Source of the DNA: a virus | DNA length: 61,990 nucleotides | Direction: 5' to 3' (one strand) | Virus genome (UHGV): UHGV-0106586 | Shown here: in pieces, positions 41,365 to 51,445 of the stretch | How positions within the stretch are numbered: the first letter of the stretch is position 1 | Layout: the number at the start of each line of letters is the position of its first letter | Notes under the pieces: generated by a model | What the model was told of the DNA's origin: nothing | What the model saw: the letters and a program-made list of their open reading frames with translations, nothing else | Databases searched by the model: none | Position numbers and translations under genes: made by a program

Positions 41365-41392
41365 AAAAAGGCTCCCGTAAAAAGGAGCCTTA
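41365..41392. terminator. bidirectional hairpin terminator between convergent genes (ggctcc-cgtaaaaa-ggagcc)
   Basis: Stem 41370-41375 / 41384-41389 with A/T runs on both sides. Confidence 0.55.
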
Positions 41393-41396
41393 AACT

Positions 41397-41768
41397 TCAC
41401 TTTTCAGTATTCTTTGTGTTCTTTTCAGTAATAGCTTGGAGGGCTGATACTGATTGAGCCAGATTATTCACACTATCAGAGAATTTATCAAGAGTCTTAG
41501 TAAGTTTTGCGTTCTCACCCTTAACATTCTCTAACTGGACTTTCTGGTTCTCCATCCCTAGCTGAAGCAACCTCATATCAGACTGTAAATCACGGATAGC
41601 TGAATAATTACTTTTGGAATAATTATCCAACTGCTGTAACTTTGTTGTGATAGACACTTCTTGTTTACCATCCGAAACTTGCATGGTGGTATACATCCCA
41701 ATAACACTAAAAATACCAACTACAATTGCACCAATATTATTTTTAAAAGCTTCATCTAGCCACTTCAT
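41397..41768 (-). CDS. membrane-anchored coiled-coil protein (123 aa)
   Basis: N-terminal hydrophobic IGAIVVGIFSVIGMY followed by Q/L-rich helical region. Confidence 0.4.
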   Translation of the reverse strand: MKWLDEAFKNNIGAIVVGIFSVIGMYTTMQVSDGKQEVSITTKLQQLDNYSKSNYSAIRDLQSDMRLLQLGMENQKVQLENVKGENAKLTKTLDKFSDSVNNLAQSVSALQAITEKNTKNTEK

Positions 41769-41962
41769 TTATTCTCCCCCTTAAAAGCTTTTTCTAAGTT
41801 ATCTACGAACTCATCATCAATAGGTGTGTCTGTTTTACTCGCAAGGTATCTTGCAAGCTTAAAGAACACTTTCTCAATCATGTATTCACTTAGAAGGGAT
41901 AAAATGAGTTTCCAGAAGAAGCTACCTAGATTTTTTAGAAGAATTGCTAGGATTGTAGGCAT
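41765..41962 (-). CDS. small hydrophobic protein (65 aa)
   Basis: ORF in track; hydrophobic N-terminal region. Confidence 0.35.
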   Translation of the reverse strand: MPTILAILLKNLGSFFWKLILSLLSEYMIEKVFFKLARYLASKTDTPIDDEFVDNLEKAFKGENK

Positions 41963-42041
41963 TTAATCACCTCATCAGCCAAGATGGTGAGAATACCCAT
42001 AAAGAATATTAACACCATCTTAACAATCAGTCAACAAGGGA

Positions 42042-44387
42042 TTAAGCAGTTCTTACCCAAGCCATTAACTTGTAGAACTGGTTAGTAACACTAAATGCTG
42101 AACCAGAACCTGTACCACCAGTGTTACCGCTAACTGTGTGGCTATGAGCACCAATACCTACTGAGTGAGCATGTCCCCCAGCAGATGCAGCAGAACCACT
42201 TACAGAGTGAGTGTGAACACCATCACTTTCTGTACAACCAACGTGCGTTTGAGCAGAGTTTGATGAAGCAACACGACCAGATGGTACGTTAGCGTTATCA
42301 CCTTGTGAGATTCTATGTGCGTGCCCACCACCAGAGTTAGCAGTACCACTTACAGAGTGGGTGTGAGCACCAGTGTTGTTAGTGTTCTTTGTACCATAAT
42401 CAAAAGATGAAGTGGTAGCAGAGAAACTATGGGTATGTGATGGTAAGTTACCAACAGCTAACGTCACAGAATCTGAACCACCAGTTGTAGCAACATCTGA
42501 ACCGTTTGCTGCTGCGATTCTGATAGTTCTACCAATACCATTGTTCAGGTACGTCCAAGTTAACCCAGGAAGTGCTGTATTAGGGTCAACATTACTATTA
42601 AACCACGTTACAATACCTACTGGGTAGATTTTATTCAGGTCTGTAGAGTCACTAATTGCTGTTGCAATCTTCTGGTCAGTCTCTGCTTTAGTATATGCAC
42701 CAATATCTGAAGGAGATGGTTTAAATGCCGTTGAATACAACTGCGCCTCTCCAACATATGCTCCATCTGCTCCATAAGCATATGTGAAGACATCAAGACC
42801 TTTGGACCCGTATGTAAAACCAATACCTCTGGCATGAGCAATACCAGCAGCATGTGCTACATGGATGGCTAAATCTTTCAGACCCTGCTCAATACCGTTA
42901 TTTCTTACAAACCCTGAATAATCTTTGTTGAATGATGCTGAGTCATCCAATCTATTAGTTGTCCTTGTCATTAAAGATTGGTTTAACAGTTTTGTTTTTA
43001 AGAAATATCTAGCATCCAAGTTAGACCAATCAGAAGGTTGAACTTGACCAGTGATTCTTACTGTTTTGTTCAGTAAGAAGTCATCCTTCATGTAAATGGT
43101 AGTAGCAGTCCTGTCATTGTGGATAGTGAACCTTTCTGGGTTGCTTGGTTCCCCATTACCAATATACCACCTTCTAACACCATCAGCATTAAAACCAGCA
43201 AAGTATAACCCATTGTCTTGTGCAGTATTCCTTAGTTGTAACAATAAGCCATTTTGATTAATAATCTGTGCAGACCTGAAATTGTTTACATCACTCAGTT
43301 TAGCAAGATTACTCAAAGTTCCTGCTGGAATATATCTAGAGTCAATGTTAGTCCAATCAGAAGGTTGTACTTGACCATCAATTTGAACTGTTTTGTTCAT
43401 GGCAATAGTGTTACCTAGTGAGACTTGTGTTTTTGTTAGGTAGTTATAGATTTTTAAAATGTTCTCATCACCGTCATTACCAATGTACCACTTATAATTC
43501 CCATCTGACTTTCTTGCTCGAATATATAAAGAGGGAGCAGTGTCCACATTTTGCAGAGTGATGGCTTCAGCATTCTTCTTAGCGATAAAATTAGCGAAAA
43601 TGTTAGTACCAGTAAAAGTATTATTAGCGGTTAACTGTGCAAATCTCTGATTAGCCACTGTCTGAGTGAAGTATCTAGCATCTAAGTTAGCCCAATCAGA
43701 AGGCTGAACTTGACCAGTAATCTGGATAGATTTGTTCACAGAAATTAGGTTATCCAGAAGAGCTAAATACGCACCGGATTTGACATTTTTGATAACAAGA
43801 TTATCTGCACCTCTATTATCATTACCTAGATACCACCTGTTAGTGCCATCTACATCTTGACCACGAATATATAGCGGCATTCCTTGTGTAATGTTCTTAA
43901 CAATAAGAGCTTCATTATCAGAGAGGATAGCTTGAGTACCTCTAAATGTGTTATTTACAGCTAATCTTGCATATCTTGCATCATTCTCTTCATTAGTTCT
44001 CATCCCAAGTTCATTAGGGCTTGGCTTATTCAGAGTATGATAAACAGTTGCCGACCTTGAAGCATCTGCAATAGTTAGTTTAAGGCCATTTGCGTTAATT
44101 TTAAAAGTCTTTAAAACATCCCCAATATTAATCTCAGAAGAGCCTGTTGGGTCAAACACTACCTTACCACCATAAAGTAACTTAACAATCCCTAAGTCAC
44201 CTGTCATAGTACTACCAGCAATCTGAACAAATCTTTCAAGTTTAAAAGATGCTAAGAAATCTCGATAGGTCATTCGACGGTCTTCATCACCCAGCATTTC
44301 AGGTCTCTTTTTAACTCTGACATGAAGAAGGTCGTCTGAACGGATTGTGTCGATTGAGTTTAATTCACTCAACTTGTAATCTGCCAT
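42042..44387 (-). CDS. tail fibre protein with tandem ~100-aa internal repeats and His-x-His-rich C-terminal region
   Basis: Repeated WY(I/L)GN and GQVQPSDW-N-D-RYF modules; C-terminal HTHS/HAHR/HSHT motifs; ends ...AWVRTA. Confidence 0.7.
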   Translation of the reverse strand: MADYKLSELNSIDTIRSDDLLHVRVKKRPEMLGDEDRRMTYRDFLASFKLERFVQIAGSTMTGDLGIVKLLYGGKVVFDPTGSSEINIGDVLKTFKINANGLKLTIADASRSATVYHTLNKPSPNELGMRTNEENDARYARLAVNNTFRGTQAILSDNEALIVKNITQGMPLYIRGQDVDGTNRWYLGNDNRGADNLVIKNVKSGAYLALLDNLISVNKSIQITGQVQPSDWANLDARYFTQTVANQRFAQLTANNTFTGTNIFANFIAKKNAEAITLQNVDTAPSLYIRARKSDGNYKWYIGNDGDENILKIYNYLTKTQVSLGNTIAMNKTVQIDGQVQPSDWTNIDSRYIPAGTLSNLAKLSDVNNFRSAQIINQNGLLLQLRNTAQDNGLYFAGFNADGVRRWYIGNGEPSNPERFTIHNDRTATTIYMKDDFLLNKTVRITGQVQPSDWSNLDARYFLKTKLLNQSLMTRTTNRLDDSASFNKDYSGFVRNNGIEQGLKDLAIHVAHAAGIAHARGIGFTYGSKGLDVFTYAYGADGAYVGEAQLYSTAFKPSPSDIGAYTKAETDQKIATAISDSTDLNKIYPVGIVTWFNSNVDPNTALPGLTWTYLNNGIGRTIRIAAANGSDVATTGGSDSVTLAVGNLPSHTHSFSATTSSFDYGTKNTNNTGAHTHSVSGTANSGGGHAHRISQGDNANVPSGRVASSNSAQTHVGCTESDGVHTHSVSGSAASAGGHAHSVGIGAHSHTVSGNTGGTGSGSAFSVTNQFYKLMAWVRTA

Positions 44388-44433
44388 TATAAATTTTCCT
44401 CTTAAAAGGGGCTATAAAGCCCCTGTAAAGAAA

Positions 44434-45621
44434 TTAAGCTGTTCTCTGCCATACATACAGCACGAAGGATGGCTGTTCAATGTTGAAAGCTTGCCCACCA
44501 CCAACACTGTTCGTGTTTCCACTATGCGTATGCTCAGAAGAAGAAACTGTCACAGTACCATTGTGCGTATGTGAACCAATACCAACTGTGTGACTGTGAG
44601 CACCAATACCCACCGTATGGTTGTGGTCACCAGTTGTGTTAGTGGTAACACTGAAAGAGTGGGTGTGCTCACCAGCGACTTCACAGACAGCATCTGCTGA
44701 GTACCATGATTGGTCATTCCTTGTAGACCAAACCATTGCAGGTCTTTCCGATAGACCACCACCTGCTTCATAGGTCAATCTGTGGTTGTGAGCACCAGCA
44801 GCACTTGTTGACCCACTGCCAACGTGATTATGGTTACCAGTTGTGTTGGTGGTCTTTGTCCCATAGTCAAAAGAGTTGGTAGTCTTAGTCCCATAATCAA
44901 AAGCTGAAATTGACACAGTTGCATTATGAGTGTGACCACCACCACTAAGAGACACAGAGTGAGAGTGTTGAGGCATGTTATTAACTGACAAAGTGACAGT
45001 CGAAGCACCAAATACAGAACCTGCTGGCCTTGTATCAGAGTCATAACCAACCAATGCCCTACCTTTTGAAACCAACTCCCAAGTACCTCCACAAATTAAG
45101 TATGTAGAAGGGTTTGCAGAGTTCATAGAAAGATGGATAGTACCTACTGGATAAGAAGCCTGAACAGCCTTGTACAAGTTATTTACTGCTCTTGCTGTAG
45201 CATACTTATCTGCATCTTCATTATACAGGTTAGATGTTGTCCAGTTCTGAACATTACTTAAACCAACCTGTGCCTTAGTTGTATTGTGTGGGTTACTCTT
45301 GTCCTTGATATGTTGTTGGACAAGATTATTAACCTCTTCTGAAGACATAATCTGTAGATTTGCTCTTGCCTCAGCTACATTAACAATATCTGATAAGTTA
45401 TTTGCAGCAACTAACTGAAGAGCATTAATAACATTATCTAAACCAATCTGTGTCTTAGTAACACCATGAGGGTTATTTCTTAGGCTTGAGTGTGGAGCAA
45501 GTAATTGCTCAAGAGTACACCTCTTATCCTCAATACCCTGCTTAAGATGGAAGATATCACTAAGGTCAATTGGTAAGGCTGCTTGAGGCAAGGCACTAAT
45601 TTGAATTTCACCTACTGCCAT
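44434..45621 (-). CDS. second tail fibre / receptor-binding protein with fibre repeats and His-x-His-rich C-terminus
   Basis: NPHGVTKTQIGLDNV and NPHNTTKAQVGLSNV fibre-repeat motifs; YPVGTIHL... collar-like region; HxH motifs; ends ...VWQRTA. Confidence 0.7.
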   Translation of the reverse strand: MAVGEIQISALPQAALPIDLSDIFHLKQGIEDKRCTLEQLLAPHSSLRNNPHGVTKTQIGLDNVINALQLVAANNLSDIVNVAEARANLQIMSSEEVNNLVQQHIKDKSNPHNTTKAQVGLSNVQNWTTSNLYNEDADKYATARAVNNLYKAVQASYPVGTIHLSMNSANPSTYLICGGTWELVSKGRALVGYDSDTRPAGSVFGASTVTLSVNNMPQHSHSVSLSGGGHTHNATVSISAFDYGTKTTNSFDYGTKTTNTTGNHNHVGSGSTSAAGAHNHRLTYEAGGGLSERPAMVWSTRNDQSWYSADAVCEVAGEHTHSFSVTTNTTGDHNHTVGIGAHSHTVGIGSHTHNGTVTVSSSEHTHSGNTNSVGGGQAFNIEQPSFVLYVWQRTA

Positions 45622-45623
45622 TA

Positions 45624-51445
<5,822 letters not shown>

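What the first reader, a model, noticed from the sequence alone, without database searches (positions are those of the whole stretch)
42042..45621. Two tail fibre genes with shared His-x-His-rich C-termini and tandem ~100-aa repeats
The 781-aa fibre contains at least three tandem modules marked by WY(I/L)GN and GQVQPSDW-N-D-RYF. Both fibres end with Gly/Ser-rich stretches dense in HxH motifs (HTHS, HAHS, HSHT, HNH) and a common ...W-RTA terminus. HxH arrays are known metal-coordinating motifs in T4 fibre tips. Two fibres with related tips but different shafts suggest dual or switchable receptor recognition; the 395-aa fibre also has a local tandem duplication (FDYGTKTTN twice).
Basis: partly seen in the sequence, partly recalled or inferred. 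Interest (0 to 1): 0.45.

Follow-up and report, generated by a model that had tools for sequence, protein, structure and literature searches.

The report
Felix O1-type phage tail fibre genes
These are the short and long tail fibre genes of a Felix O1-like phage; both end in the histidine-rich, metal-binding needle tip known from phage T4, and this arrangement was already described by cryo-EM in 2025, so the finding is real but ordinary.

Summary
Two minus-strand genes (781 aa, 42042-44387; 395 aa, 44434-45621) carry 6 and 9 HxH motifs. The long one has three ~110-aa tandem modules, the short one a doubled FDYGTKTTN, and both end W-x-RTA.

The window is a Felixounavirus genome (~94-95% nt identity to isolates). 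The genes match Bas63 gp27 (LTF) and gp26 (STF), Sf14 gp53/gp52, VpaE1 gp75/gp74 and Felix O1 gp77/gp76.

Both C-termini are sequence homologues of the T4 gp37 receptor-binding tip (PDB 2XGF; E=7e-14 and 4e-27). Their HxH motifs align with the T4 iron-binding histidines. In the long fibre all 12 are at least 99% conserved in relatives; in the short one ten are at least 96% and the other eight vary. A hypervariable head loop sits between the two needle strands.

The three modules are Pfam PF20744 units. Their core resembles the T7 gp17 pyramid domain.

Cryo-EM papers on Bas63 and Sf14 (2025) already describe two coexisting fibres with gp37-like HxH tips. "Dual recognition" is a published but unproven hypothesis. 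"Switchable" has no support: the genes are tandem and co-directional, and no invertible segment was found.

My small additions are coordinated needle-length differences and cassette-like shuffling of the shaft modules.

Novelty: already known. Interest: low.

The parts
44434..45621 (-). Short tail fibre gene (STF, 395 aa), counterpart of Bas63 gp26, Sf14 gp52, VpaE1 gp74 and Felix O1 gp76
   Evidence: ORF. PHROG 2097 at E=2e-137. Pfam Gp10_C at 68.7 bits. PDB 2XGF at E=4e-27. Sits directly downstream of the LTF-platform and wedge genes.
45202..45621 (-). STF N-terminal baseplate-binding region plus helix-and-turn repeats (residues 1-140). The motif NPHxxTKxQ(I/V)GLxNV occurs twice.
   Evidence: Conserved 0.63-0.88 in 73 relatives. 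The STF profile hits PDB 9ZD7 'short tail fiber gp92' at E=2e-14 over residues 68-117. The domain role is taken from Bas63 cryo-EM (PMC12609058).
44968..45201 (-). STF collar domain (residues ~141-218)
   Evidence: Aligns with the T4 gp37 collar and the T4 gp10 C-terminal domain. It is the only confidently predicted part of the AF2 monomer, with pLDDT 77-87.
44782..44967 (-). STF ascending needle strand (residues 219-280): HxH at 219, 230, 264 and 278, plus the doubled FDYGTKTTN (44845-44904)
   Evidence: His 219, 221, 230, 232, 278 and 280 are 96-100% conserved.
44668..44781 (-). STF head loop (residues 281-318), the presumed receptor-contacting tip; hypervariable
   Evidence: Identity to relatives is 0.22-0.31 here against 0.6-0.88 elsewhere. 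Aligns with the T4 gp37 head segment between His 931 and His 966.
44437..44667 (-). STF descending needle strand and C-terminus (residues 319-395): HxH at 319, 333, 342, 351 and 364; ends YVWQRTA
   Evidence: The C-terminal W-x-R-x-(A/S) is kept in 72 of 74 relatives.
42042..44387 (-). Long tail fibre gene (LTF, 781 aa), counterpart of Bas63 gp27, Sf14 gp53, VpaE1 gp75 and Felix O1 gp77
   Evidence: ORF. PHROG 4277 full length at E=0. Pfam PF20744 three times, E=1e-51. PDB 2XGF at E=7e-14. An identical protein, P0121, is on 8 public contigs.
43998..44387 (-). LTF N-terminal region (residues 1-130): baseplate-binding domain and a first, degenerate beta module
   Evidence: 97% mean identity and a single sequence type in 115 relatives. 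The role is inferred from Bas63 (PMC12609058).
43002..43997 (-). Three tandem ~110-aa shaft modules (residues 131-240, 241-353, 354-462). Each has a variable beta core and a conserved junction NK(S/T)(I/V)xIxGQVQPSDWxNxDxRY.
   Evidence: The module HMM finds exactly three copies, 39-44% identical to each other. Pfam PF20744. The module profile hits the T7 gp17 pyramid domain (4A0T, 4A0U, 7BOZ) at E=1e-7. There are 9-12 sequence types per module, found in many combinations.
42663..43001 (-). LTF residues 463-575: a further beta-rich shaft segment. It is not detectable as a repeat by sequence and is probably the fifth beta module seen in Bas63.
   Evidence: No HMM hit. Seven sequence types. The beta-rich secondary structure comes only from a low-confidence model. 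Bas63 shows five beta-helix repeat domains (PMC12609058).
42438..42662 (-). LTF collar domain (residues 576-650)
   Evidence: 96% mean identity and a single type. Aligns with the T4 gp37 collar. Pfam Gp10_C at 24.9 bits, below the 27-bit cut-off.
42045..42437 (-). LTF needle, head and needle (residues 651-781): HxH at 651, 675 and 689; head loop 692-724 (42216-42314); HxH at 725, 739 and 748; ends AWVRTA
   Evidence: All 12 His are at least 99% conserved in 115 relatives, and the head is 0.18 identical. There are two main head types, of 33 and 45 aa, and the window has the 33-aa VpaE1/TH10 type. See also the alignment with T4.
45624..45926 (-). LTF platform protein (100 aa), the baseplate attachment point of the long fibre
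   Evidence: PDB 9NDY chain S, 'LTF platform protein (gp025)' of Bas63, E=1.2e-63 over the full length.
44404..44423 (-). GC-rich hairpin plus U-run in the 46-nt spacer between the STF stop and the LTF start. It may attenuate read-through or stabilise the RNA.
   Evidence: Sequence. Fold -16.8 kcal/mol, z = -2.0. In phage ASO1A the stem is kept and the loop differs. The simple terminator scan did not call it.

Best explanation
The region encodes the two side fibres of a Felixounavirus (Felix O1-like contractile-tailed phage). The 395-aa gene is the short fibre (STF) and the 781-aa gene is the long fibre (LTF).

Shown here:
- Both proteins end in a module homologous to the receptor-binding tip of T4 gp37. 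It consists of a collar, a needle made of an ascending and a descending strand studded with HxH motifs, and a small hypervariable head loop at the turn.
- The LTF shaft holds three sequence-detectable PF20744 modules of ~110 aa. Each has a variable beta core related to the T7 gp17 pyramid domain and a conserved junction motif.

Inferred from homology with T4 gp37 (2XGF) and from cryo-EM of Bas63 and Sf14:
- Each fibre is a homotrimer.
- Each HxH motif from the three chains forms one octahedral metal site (Fe2+ in T4) on the trimer axis. That predicts about 6 sites in the LTF and about 9 in the STF, which stiffen the six-stranded needle.
- The head loops contact LPS core sugars.
- The LTF hangs from the 100-aa platform protein on wedge protein 1, and the STF from wedge protein 2. 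Both are on the virion at the same time.

Most likely mode of action, by analogy with T4 and not demonstrated: two-step recognition, in which the longer and more loosely held LTF samples the surface first and the STF then engages.

Host range evolves by replacing the head loops and, in the LTF, by swapping whole shaft modules at the conserved junctions.
For: Identity of the phage and genes:
- 281 phage records match, nearly all Felixounavirus or relatives, the best at 93-95%.
- PHROG 4277 and 2097.
- The neighbouring genes are Bas63 LTF platform gp025 and wedge protein 1 gp024 (PDB 9NDY; E=1e-63 and 7e-182).

Tip homology:
- 2XGF at E=7e-14 for the LTF and 4e-27 for the STF, and 3e-26 with the STF profile.
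- In the three-way alignment the window's HxH motifs fall on T4 His 883, 915, 929, 966, 980, 989 and 998.
- Needle spans change together on both strands. T4 has 46 and 32 residues, the STF 59 and 45, the LTF 38 and 23. This fits a hairpin needle.

Conservation:
- All 12 HxH His in the LTF are at least 99% conserved in 115 relatives, and ten STF His are 96-100% conserved in 73 relatives. The head loops are only 0.18-0.31 identical.

Shaft modules:
- Three copies by Pfam and by my own HMM.
- T7 gp17 pyramid domain at E=1e-7.

Shuffling:
- 7-12 sequence types per segment, 48 combinations in 115 proteins, and four-gamete incompatibilities at every boundary.
- The window's own LTF combines a P0122-like shaft with a P0128-like tip.
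- STF and LTF tip types co-occur in only one of about 40 isolates.

Literature:
- Bas63 cryo-EM describes an STF of 430 A and an LTF of 630 A, both with a gp37-like collar, HxH needle and head (PMC12609058).
- Sf14 has gp52 (391 aa) and gp53 (792 aa), 'which may bind different receptors' (PMC11821841).
- VpaE1 gp74 and gp75 are both homologous to T4 gp37 (PMC4690856).
- Felix O1 gp76 and gp77 (PMC3185647).
Against: - No metal content, trimer state or receptor was measured here.
- The monomer AlphaFold2 models are poor (mean pLDDT 61.5 and 44.3). Foldseek with the STF model gave no significant PDB match. So the fold rests on sequence homology and on the published cryo-EM of relatives.
- The roles 'LTF first, STF second' are analogy only. 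The Bas63 authors could not resolve side chains in either fibre, and no published experiment that I found assigns a receptor to either fibre.
- The Bas63 paper counts 7 HxH in its STF, whereas 9 is the commonest count among relatives here (51 of 74). The number of metal sites is therefore not fixed within the family.
- T4 gp37 needs gp38 to fold. No gp38 homologue is in this window, so assembly may differ from T4.
- The shuffling evidence comes from protein types among the 120 best database hits. That sample is biased, and no formal nucleotide recombination test was run.
Confidence: 0.9

Rival explanations
1. The two genes are alternative, switchable fibres: only one is used at a time, as with the invertible G segment of phage Mu.
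For: There are two fibre genes with related tips side by side. The Sf14 paper draws the comparison with Mu, which has two fibre sets.
Against: - The genes are tandem and co-directional, separated by 46 nt.
- The longest inverted repeats around them are 14-24 nt at 71-94% complementarity, which is chance level. None brackets either gene as a pair.
- I did not search for a recombinase; the neighbouring genes I scanned are baseplate, platform and small membrane proteins.
- Cryo-EM of Bas63 and Sf14 shows both fibres on the same particle.
- Felix O1 proteomics detected gp77 at 31% coverage and gp76 at 9%, below the 25% cut-off its authors applied.
Confidence: 0.02
2. The two proteins are the proximal and distal halves of one jointed fibre, like T4 gp34 plus gp37, rather than two separate fibres.
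For: - The Bas63 authors compare the LTF shaft modules with the T4 gp34 rod and the tips with gp37.
- The gene order 'shorter then longer fibre gene' loosely recalls the T4 34-37 cluster.
Against: - Each protein has its own complete collar, needle and head tip, and its own conserved N-terminal region.
- Cryo-EM places them as separate trimers attached to different baseplate proteins.
- No gp35- or gp36-like hinge was found. Pfam gives nothing of that kind for either fibre protein or for the three genes upstream.
Confidence: 0.03
3. The short fibre is mainly a structural brace or trigger lying along the sheath, and only the long fibre recognises a receptor. There would then be one specificity determinant, not two.
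For: - In Bas63 the STF head sits between sheath domains D2 and D3 of the tenth ring, and STFs stay in place in all classes of extended tails.
- The STF is less diverse than the LTF. Hits at 99% identity exist for the STF, while the next LTF cluster after the identical one is at 87%.
Against: - The STF head loop is as hypervariable as the LTF head (0.22-0.31 identity against 0.6-0.88 for the rest of the protein). That pattern is expected for a host-contacting surface and not for a surface that docks on the phage's own conserved sheath.
- The STF tip type assorts independently of the LTF tip type among isolates.
Confidence: 0.12
4. The HxH arrays are only compositional low complexity in Gly/Ser/Thr/His-rich linkers, with no metal-binding role.
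For: The regions are rich in Ser, Gly and Thr, with 9-10% His.
Against: - The match to 2XGF is significant and in register.
- The HxH count is far above the shuffle expectation even within the His-rich region.
- The HxH His are nearly all invariant while the neighbouring residues vary.
Confidence: 0.02

Closest known systems
Bas63 (Escherichia phage JohannRWettstein) short fibre gp26 and long fibre gp27; also Sf14 gp52/gp53, VpaE1 gp74/gp75 and Felix O1 gp76/gp77
   Same: - Same genus-level genome and the same gene order: wedge 2, wedge 1, LTF platform, STF, LTF.
- Same sizes (395 and 781 aa against 391 and 792 aa in Sf14).
- Same architecture: baseplate-binding N-terminus, shaft, collar, HxH needle and head.
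- Six HxH in the LTF, as in Bas63.
   Different: - The window's LTF head is the 33-aa VpaE1/TH10 type, not the 45-aa HHxH type. The Bas63 paper describes an HHxH feature for its LTF, which points to the 45-aa type, but I did not check the Bas63 sequence directly.
- The STF here has 9 HxH, against the 7 reported for Bas63.
- This combination of shaft modules and tip is seen in only one other database protein, the identical P0121.
T4 gp37 receptor-binding tip (PDB 2XGF)
   Same: - Collar, needle and head order.
- HxH motifs in register with the seven T4 iron-binding motifs.
- The FDYGTK unit(s).
- The GIGAHSHTV 'His box'.
- The hydrophobic-x-R-x-A C-terminus (IVRLA in T4, W(V/Q)RTA here).
   Different: - 6 (LTF) or 9 (STF) motifs instead of 7, with matching length changes on both strands.
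- The head loops are unrelated in sequence.
- Here the tip sits on a single-protein fibre attached directly to the baseplate, not on the distal half of a four-protein jointed fibre.
- No gp38 homologue is nearby.
T7 gp17 pyramid domain (PDB 4A0T, 4A0U, 7BOZ) and Pfam PF20744 'gp37_trimer'
   Same: - The core of each LTF module (profile positions 25-94) aligns with gp17 residues 368-435 at E=1e-7.
- All three modules score as PF20744, 173 bits in total.
   Different: - T7 has one such domain followed by a globular tip. Here three detectable copies (five by the Bas63 structure) are strung in tandem and are followed by a gp37-type tip.
- T4 gp37 itself does not match PF20744 in my scan, so the Pfam name is misleading for this comparison.
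T4 gp34 rod region (PDB 5NXH)
   Same: The Bas63 authors report structural similarity of the LTF beta-helix repeats and the 'triple alpha helix and turn' linkers to the gp34 rod.
   Different: I found no sequence-level relation. The module HMM scores T4 gp34 at E=1.9, and the profile search of the PDB did not return 5NXH.
T4 gp10 C-terminal domain (Pfam PF21939; PDB 2FKK)
   Same: The STF collar matches at E=1e-18 in Pfam and E=1e-10 with the profile against the PDB.
   Different: Only the ~75-residue collar fold is shared. gp10 is a baseplate wedge protein without an HxH needle.

Membership tests
T4 gp37-type receptor-binding tip (collar, HxH needle, head; PDB 2XGF) | Significant sequence similarity to the solved tip across the collar and needle | tested here: met
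   LTF residues 645-760 at E=7e-14; STF residues 146-367 at E=4e-27; STF family profile at E=3e-26.
T4 gp37-type receptor-binding tip (collar, HxH needle, head; PDB 2XGF) | HxH motifs in register with the T4 iron-coordinating histidines | tested here: met
   In the three-way alignment, six of the seven T4 motifs are matched in the LTF. All seven are matched in the STF, which also has two extra motifs.
T4 gp37-type receptor-binding tip (collar, HxH needle, head; PDB 2XGF) | The histidines are conserved across relatives while the head loop between the two strands varies | tested here: met
   LTF: 12 of 12 His at least 99% conserved, head 0.18 identical. STF: core His 96-100% conserved, head 0.22-0.31 identical.
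T4 gp37-type receptor-binding tip (collar, HxH needle, head; PDB 2XGF) | Homotrimer with metal ions on the axis | not testable with these tools
   Only monomer prediction was available, and the models were poor. Trimers are seen by cryo-EM in Bas63 and Sf14.
T4 gp37-type receptor-binding tip (collar, HxH needle, head; PDB 2XGF) | Dedicated assembly factor gp38 encoded next to the fibre gene | tested here: not met
   tblastn of T4 gp38 against the window gives a best E of 0.19. The genes downstream encode 65-aa and 123-aa membrane or coiled-coil proteins. The window is only part of the genome.
Felixounavirus STF and LTF pair (Bas63 gp26 and gp27) | Position directly after the wedge 2, wedge 1 and LTF-platform genes | tested here: met
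   The 489-aa Baseplate_J protein, the 287-aa protein (9NDY_J, wedge protein 1, E=7e-182) and the 100-aa protein (9NDY_S, LTF platform, E=1e-63) lie immediately upstream.
Felixounavirus STF and LTF pair (Bas63 gp26 and gp27) | Full-length similarity to the family's fibre proteins | tested here: met
   PHROG 4277 covers 1-781 of 780 profile positions at E=0, and PHROG 2097 scores E=2e-137. Dozens of full-length relatives at 73-100% (LTF) and 39-99% (STF) identity.
Pfam PF20744 (gp37_trimer) tandem shaft module | Score above the curated cut-off | tested here: met
   173.1 bits against a 21.7-bit cut-off, in three stretches.
Pfam PF21939 (Gp10_C collar) | Score above the curated cut-off | tested here: met
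   STF 68.7 bits against 27: met. LTF 24.9 bits: just below the cut-off, so not met by Pfam's rule, although the same region aligns with the 2XGF collar.
T7 gp17 pyramid-domain fold | Interlocked trimeric beta-sheet pyramid | tested here: inconclusive
   Sequence-profile match at E=1e-7 over 65-69 residues. The fold could not be confirmed because the LTF model has pLDDT 44.
Invertible or phase-variable fibre switch (Mu G segment type) | Inverted repeats bracketing the fibre genes | tested here: not met
   Only short, chance-level inverted repeats were found. I did not search for a site-specific recombinase.

The most novel reading that the evidence does not exclude
The variable beta cores of the long-fibre shaft modules may be independently exchangeable cassettes. 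They would recombine at the conserved NKxxxIxGQVQPSDWxNxDxRY junctions and carry a second layer of specificity besides the tip. That layer could be lateral binding of surface glycans or escape from a host defence that senses the fibre. The Bas63 authors noted the unexpected variability and listed these functional possibilities. In the passages I read they do not mention cassette shuffling. My evidence for it is discrete module types, 48 combinations in 115 proteins, and four-gamete incompatibilities at every boundary. This is suggestive, not proof.
Probability: 0.25. Interest if true: 0.4.

Novelty: already known. Interest (0 to 1): 0.1.

Why it matters
It matters little as a discovery. The two fibres, their gp37-like HxH tips and the repeated shaft domains were published for Felix O1 (2010), VpaE1 (2015), and Sf14 and Bas63 (2025).

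Practical value remains in three places.
- Felixounaviruses are used for Salmonella and E. coli typing, biocontrol and therapy. Nobody has yet assigned a receptor to either fibre.
- This window gives clean domain boundaries for tip or module swaps.
- It is also a natural chimera, with the shaft of one lineage and a VpaE1/TH10-type tip, which shows that such swaps are viable.

Tried and rejected
- **AlphaFold2 monomer of the STF** with a 47-sequence alignment gave mean pLDDT 61.5, with only the collar confident. Foldseek of that model against the PDB gave nothing below E=0.24; the best matches were T4 gp10. Uninformative, as expected for an intertwined trimer.
- **AlphaFold2 monomer of the whole LTF** gave mean pLDDT 44.3. 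I did not use it for fold search. Its alternating helix and beta-block pattern is only a weak hint of five modules.
- **Module HMM against T4 gp34, gp35, gp36 and gp37** gave no significant match. T4 gp37 does not hit PF20744. So I could not confirm by sequence the gp34-rod similarity stated in the Bas63 paper.
- **HMM search for degenerate fourth and fifth module copies** in the LTF, or any copy in the STF, found none.
- **Invertible segment:** no credible inverted repeats. The switch idea is rejected.
- **T4 gp38 homologue:** none in the window. Pfam on the two small downstream genes gave only coiled-coil noise.
- **Automatic split of needle strands by the largest HxH gap** across relatives failed, because the FDYGTK spacer can be longer than the head loop. 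I use only the comparison of T4, STF and LTF from that call.
- **Breakpoint histogram** only maps the edges between conserved junctions and variable cores. It does not by itself prove recombination.
- **tRNA and Rfam scans** of the window found nothing.
- **Bartual et al. 2010** (T4 gp37 tip) is not held in the paper library. Statements about Fe2+ in T4 come from the Bas63 paper's summary and from general knowledge.

Full report
**What is there**

The region holds two adjacent minus-strand ORFs: 44434..45621 (395 aa) and 42042..44387 (781 aa), separated by 46 nt.
- WY[IL]GN at residues 185, 300 and 407 of the long protein.
- GQVQPSDWxNxDxRY at 225, 338 and 447. The middle copy ends RYI.
- FDYGTK once in the long protein and twice in the short one. 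The two 30-nt copies are 26/30 identical.
- Six HxH in the long protein and nine in the short one.
- Termini WVRTA and WQRTA.

Shuffling the residues gives means of 0.44 and 1.39 HxH. The observed count was reached 0 and 1 times in 20,000 shuffles. An HMM built from the modules finds exactly three copies, at 131-240, 241-353 and 354-462. They are 39-44% identical to each other.

**Where it comes from**

The locus matches 281 phage records, nearly all Felixounavirus or close relatives, with the best at 93-95% nucleotide identity. The first 25 kb of the window behaves the same way. The genes upstream on the same strand are:
- a Baseplate_J protein of 489 aa;
- a 287-aa protein, which is wedge protein 1 of phage Bas63 (PDB 9NDY_J, E=7e-182);
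- a 100-aa protein, which is the Bas63 'LTF platform protein gp025' (9NDY_S, E=1e-63).

By position and size the two genes are therefore the counterparts of Bas63 gp26 (short fibre, STF) and gp27 (long fibre, LTF). PHROGs agree: 4277 over the full length at E=0, and 2097 at E=2e-137.

**The tips**

Both C-termini are sequence homologues of the T4 gp37 receptor-binding tip, PDB 2XGF. The LTF (residues 645-760) scores E=7e-14 and the STF (146-367) scores E=4e-27. An STF family profile scores 3e-26. The STF collar also matches the T4 gp10 C-terminal domain.

I fetched T4 gp37 and aligned its last 242 residues with both proteins.
- The T4 HxH motifs at 883, 915, 929 | 966, 980, 989 and 998 line up with STF 219, 264, 278 | 319, 333, 342 and 351, and with LTF 651, 675, 689 | 725, 739 and 748.
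- The STF has one extra motif on each strand (230 and 364). The LTF lacks the last T4 motif and one FDYGTK-like unit.
- The spans of the ascending and descending strands change together: T4 46 and 32 residues, STF 59 and 45, LTF 38 and 23. That is what a hairpin needle requires.
- T4 also has the doubled unit (DLGTKTTSSFDYGTKGTN) and a related C-terminus (IVRLA). The 'local duplication' and the 'W-RTA' ending are therefore family features.

**Conservation**

In 115 full-length LTF relatives all 12 HxH histidines are at least 99% conserved, 118 of 120 proteins have six motifs, and all end WVRTA. The head loop 692-724 is only 0.18 identical.

In 73 STF relatives ten of the 18 HxH histidines (219, 221, 230, 232, 278, 280, 319, 321, 351, 353) are 96-100% conserved. 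The other eight are 53-82% identical, partly because of gaps. The head 281-318 is 0.22-0.31 identical. Nine motifs is the commonest count (51 of 74), with 6 to 11 in other clades.

**The shaft repeats**

The three modules are Pfam PF20744 units (173 bits, three stretches). A profile of the modules hits the T7 gp17 pyramid domain (4A0T, 4A0U, 7BOZ; gp17 residues 368-435; E=1e-7) and, weakly, the Mu fibre protein S. This agrees with the Sf14 paper's description.

I found no sequence link to T4 gp34 or gp37, and T4 gp37 does not itself match PF20744. The Bas63 paper counts five beta-helix repeat domains by structure. By sequence only three are detectable. Residues ~50-130 and 463-575 are the likely outer two, supported only by a low-confidence model.

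Protein lengths of 779-796 in 114 of 120 relatives show that the repeat number is essentially fixed, as the Bas63 authors also concluded.

**What is already published**

- Felix O1 gp76 and gp77 were linked to T4 gp37 in 2010 (PMC3185647).
- VpaE1 gp74 and gp75 were linked to it in 2015, with the note that the middle of gp75 is highly variable (PMC4690856).
- Sf14 cryo-EM (2025) showed two fibre types, gp52 (391 aa) and gp53 (792 aa), 'which may bind different receptors' (PMC11821841).
- Bas63 cryo-EM (2025) described a 430-A STF and a 630-A LTF. Both have a gp37-like collar, HxH needle and head, and the paper counts the HxH motifs, reports five shaft repeats and maps the variability (PMC12609058).

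The finding is thus already known.

**Dual or switchable?**

Both fibres are on the same virion in Bas63 and Sf14. The genes are tandem and co-directional, and only chance-level inverted repeats occur around them. A genetic switch is rejected.

Dual recognition is plausible:
- Both head loops are hypervariable.
- The two head loops are not alignable with each other.
- Tip types assort independently among isolates. The window's LTF tip type occurs in 9 isolates (TH10 at 99%; VpaE1 derivatives, ULIM3/8/9, ASO1A and EcoM2 at 89-93%). Its STF tip type occurs in 32 isolates. Only one phage is in both lists.

I found no published experiment that assigns a receptor to either fibre. The BASEL paper says the role of short fibres in this group is unexplored. 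A two-step model with the LTF first and the STF second is an analogy with T4.

**Small additions from this work**

- Needle length differs in a coordinated way on both strands.
- The LTF shaft behaves as a set of cassettes. The N-terminus (1-130) and the collar (576-650) are single-type and 96-97% conserved. The four shaft segments and the tip each fall into 7-12 discrete types at 85% identity.
- Those types occur in 48 combinations among 115 proteins, with four-gamete incompatibilities at every boundary.
- The variable cores are sharply bounded by the conserved junctions. At nucleotide level the junctions are 54-68-nt islands of 79-91% identity between modules.
- The window's own LTF is a chimera. 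Modules 1, 3 and 4 are 96-98% like P0122, and the needle is 100% like P0128.
- The sample is the biased top 120 hits, and no nucleotide recombination test was run, so this is suggestive only.

**Limits**

Only monomer structure prediction was available, and it failed (pLDDT 61.5 and 44.3). Foldseek gave nothing significant. No gp38-like assembly factor is in the window. How these tips fold is open, but the window covers only part of the genome.

**Verdict**

Novelty: already known. Interest: low.

Noticed in passing
window 44404-44423 (- strand), in the 46-nt spacer between the two fibre genes: A GC-rich hairpin (AGGGGCU-UUAU-AGCCCCU) followed by UUUU lies just before the LTF ribosome-binding site. 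The fold is -16.8 kcal/mol with z = -2.0. In phage ASO1A the stem is kept but the loop differs. It might attenuate read-through into the LTF gene or stabilise the RNA. The simple terminator scan did not call it.
   Followed up: partly
window 41963-42041 (- strand), after the LTF stop: A promoter-like TTGACT-17-TAATAT with an extended-10 TG (42034..42006) overlaps a 15-nt inverted repeat (41981-41995 and 42007-42021), upstream of the 65-aa membrane protein gene. The ASO1A record annotates a terminator at the equivalent place.
   Followed up: no
window 41368-41391: A strong hairpin terminator (9-bp stem followed by a T-run) sits between the convergent thymidylate synthase gene (+) and the 123-aa gene (-). 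ASO1A annotates it as a terminator on both strands.
   Followed up: no
window 41397-41962 (- strand): Two small genes directly follow the long fibre gene. One encodes 65 aa (PHROG 402, called 'holin' in some records). The other encodes 123 aa with what looks by eye like a hydrophobic N-terminal segment followed by coiled coil (PHROG 4038, unknown function; only coiled-coil noise in Pfam). The order fibre gene then holin-like gene recalls T4 genes 37-38-t. No T4 gp38 homologue is in the window, so what helps these gp37-like tips to fold is unknown.
   Followed up: partly
window 42234-42236 (LTF residue 718): The LTF head loop has Cys (HVGCTESDGV) where nearly all relatives with the same 33-aa head type have Trp (HVGWTE...). 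Only the window and the identical database protein P0121 carry Cys. It is a single-base change in the presumed receptor-contacting loop.
   Followed up: no
window 42042-42347 (LTF tip) and 44434-44850 (STF tip): The LTF tip type is rare among sequenced isolates: 9 records, including TH10 and derivatives of VpaE1, a phage reported to need a truncated E. coli B-type LPS core. The STF tip type is common: 32 records, including phages of O157, O145, O121, LF82 and Shigella sonnei hosts. Only VpaE1_ev78 carries both.
   Followed up: partly
window 45247-45474 (STF residues 50-65 and 110-125): The motif NPHxxTKxQ(I/V)GLxNV occurs twice in the STF shaft. The STF family profile matches PDB 9ZD7 'short tail fiber gp92' at E=2e-14 over this region. 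This is probably the 'triple alpha helix and turn' element described for Bas63.
   Followed up: no
whole window: GC skew is negative over 1-32 kb and 42-62 kb and positive over 32-40 kb, following the direction of transcription. No tRNA gene and no Rfam family was found in these 62 kb, although Felix O1-type genomes carry about 22 tRNAs, so the tRNA cluster must lie outside the window.
   Followed up: no
Pfam PF20744 against T4 gp37 (locus L002 7543-10623): The Pfam family named 'Tail fibre protein gp37 trimerization region' does not match T4 gp37 itself at E <= 0.01. T4 gp37 instead shows a weak Gp34_trimer hit at residues 491-627. The family name is misleading when used for annotation.
   Followed up: partly
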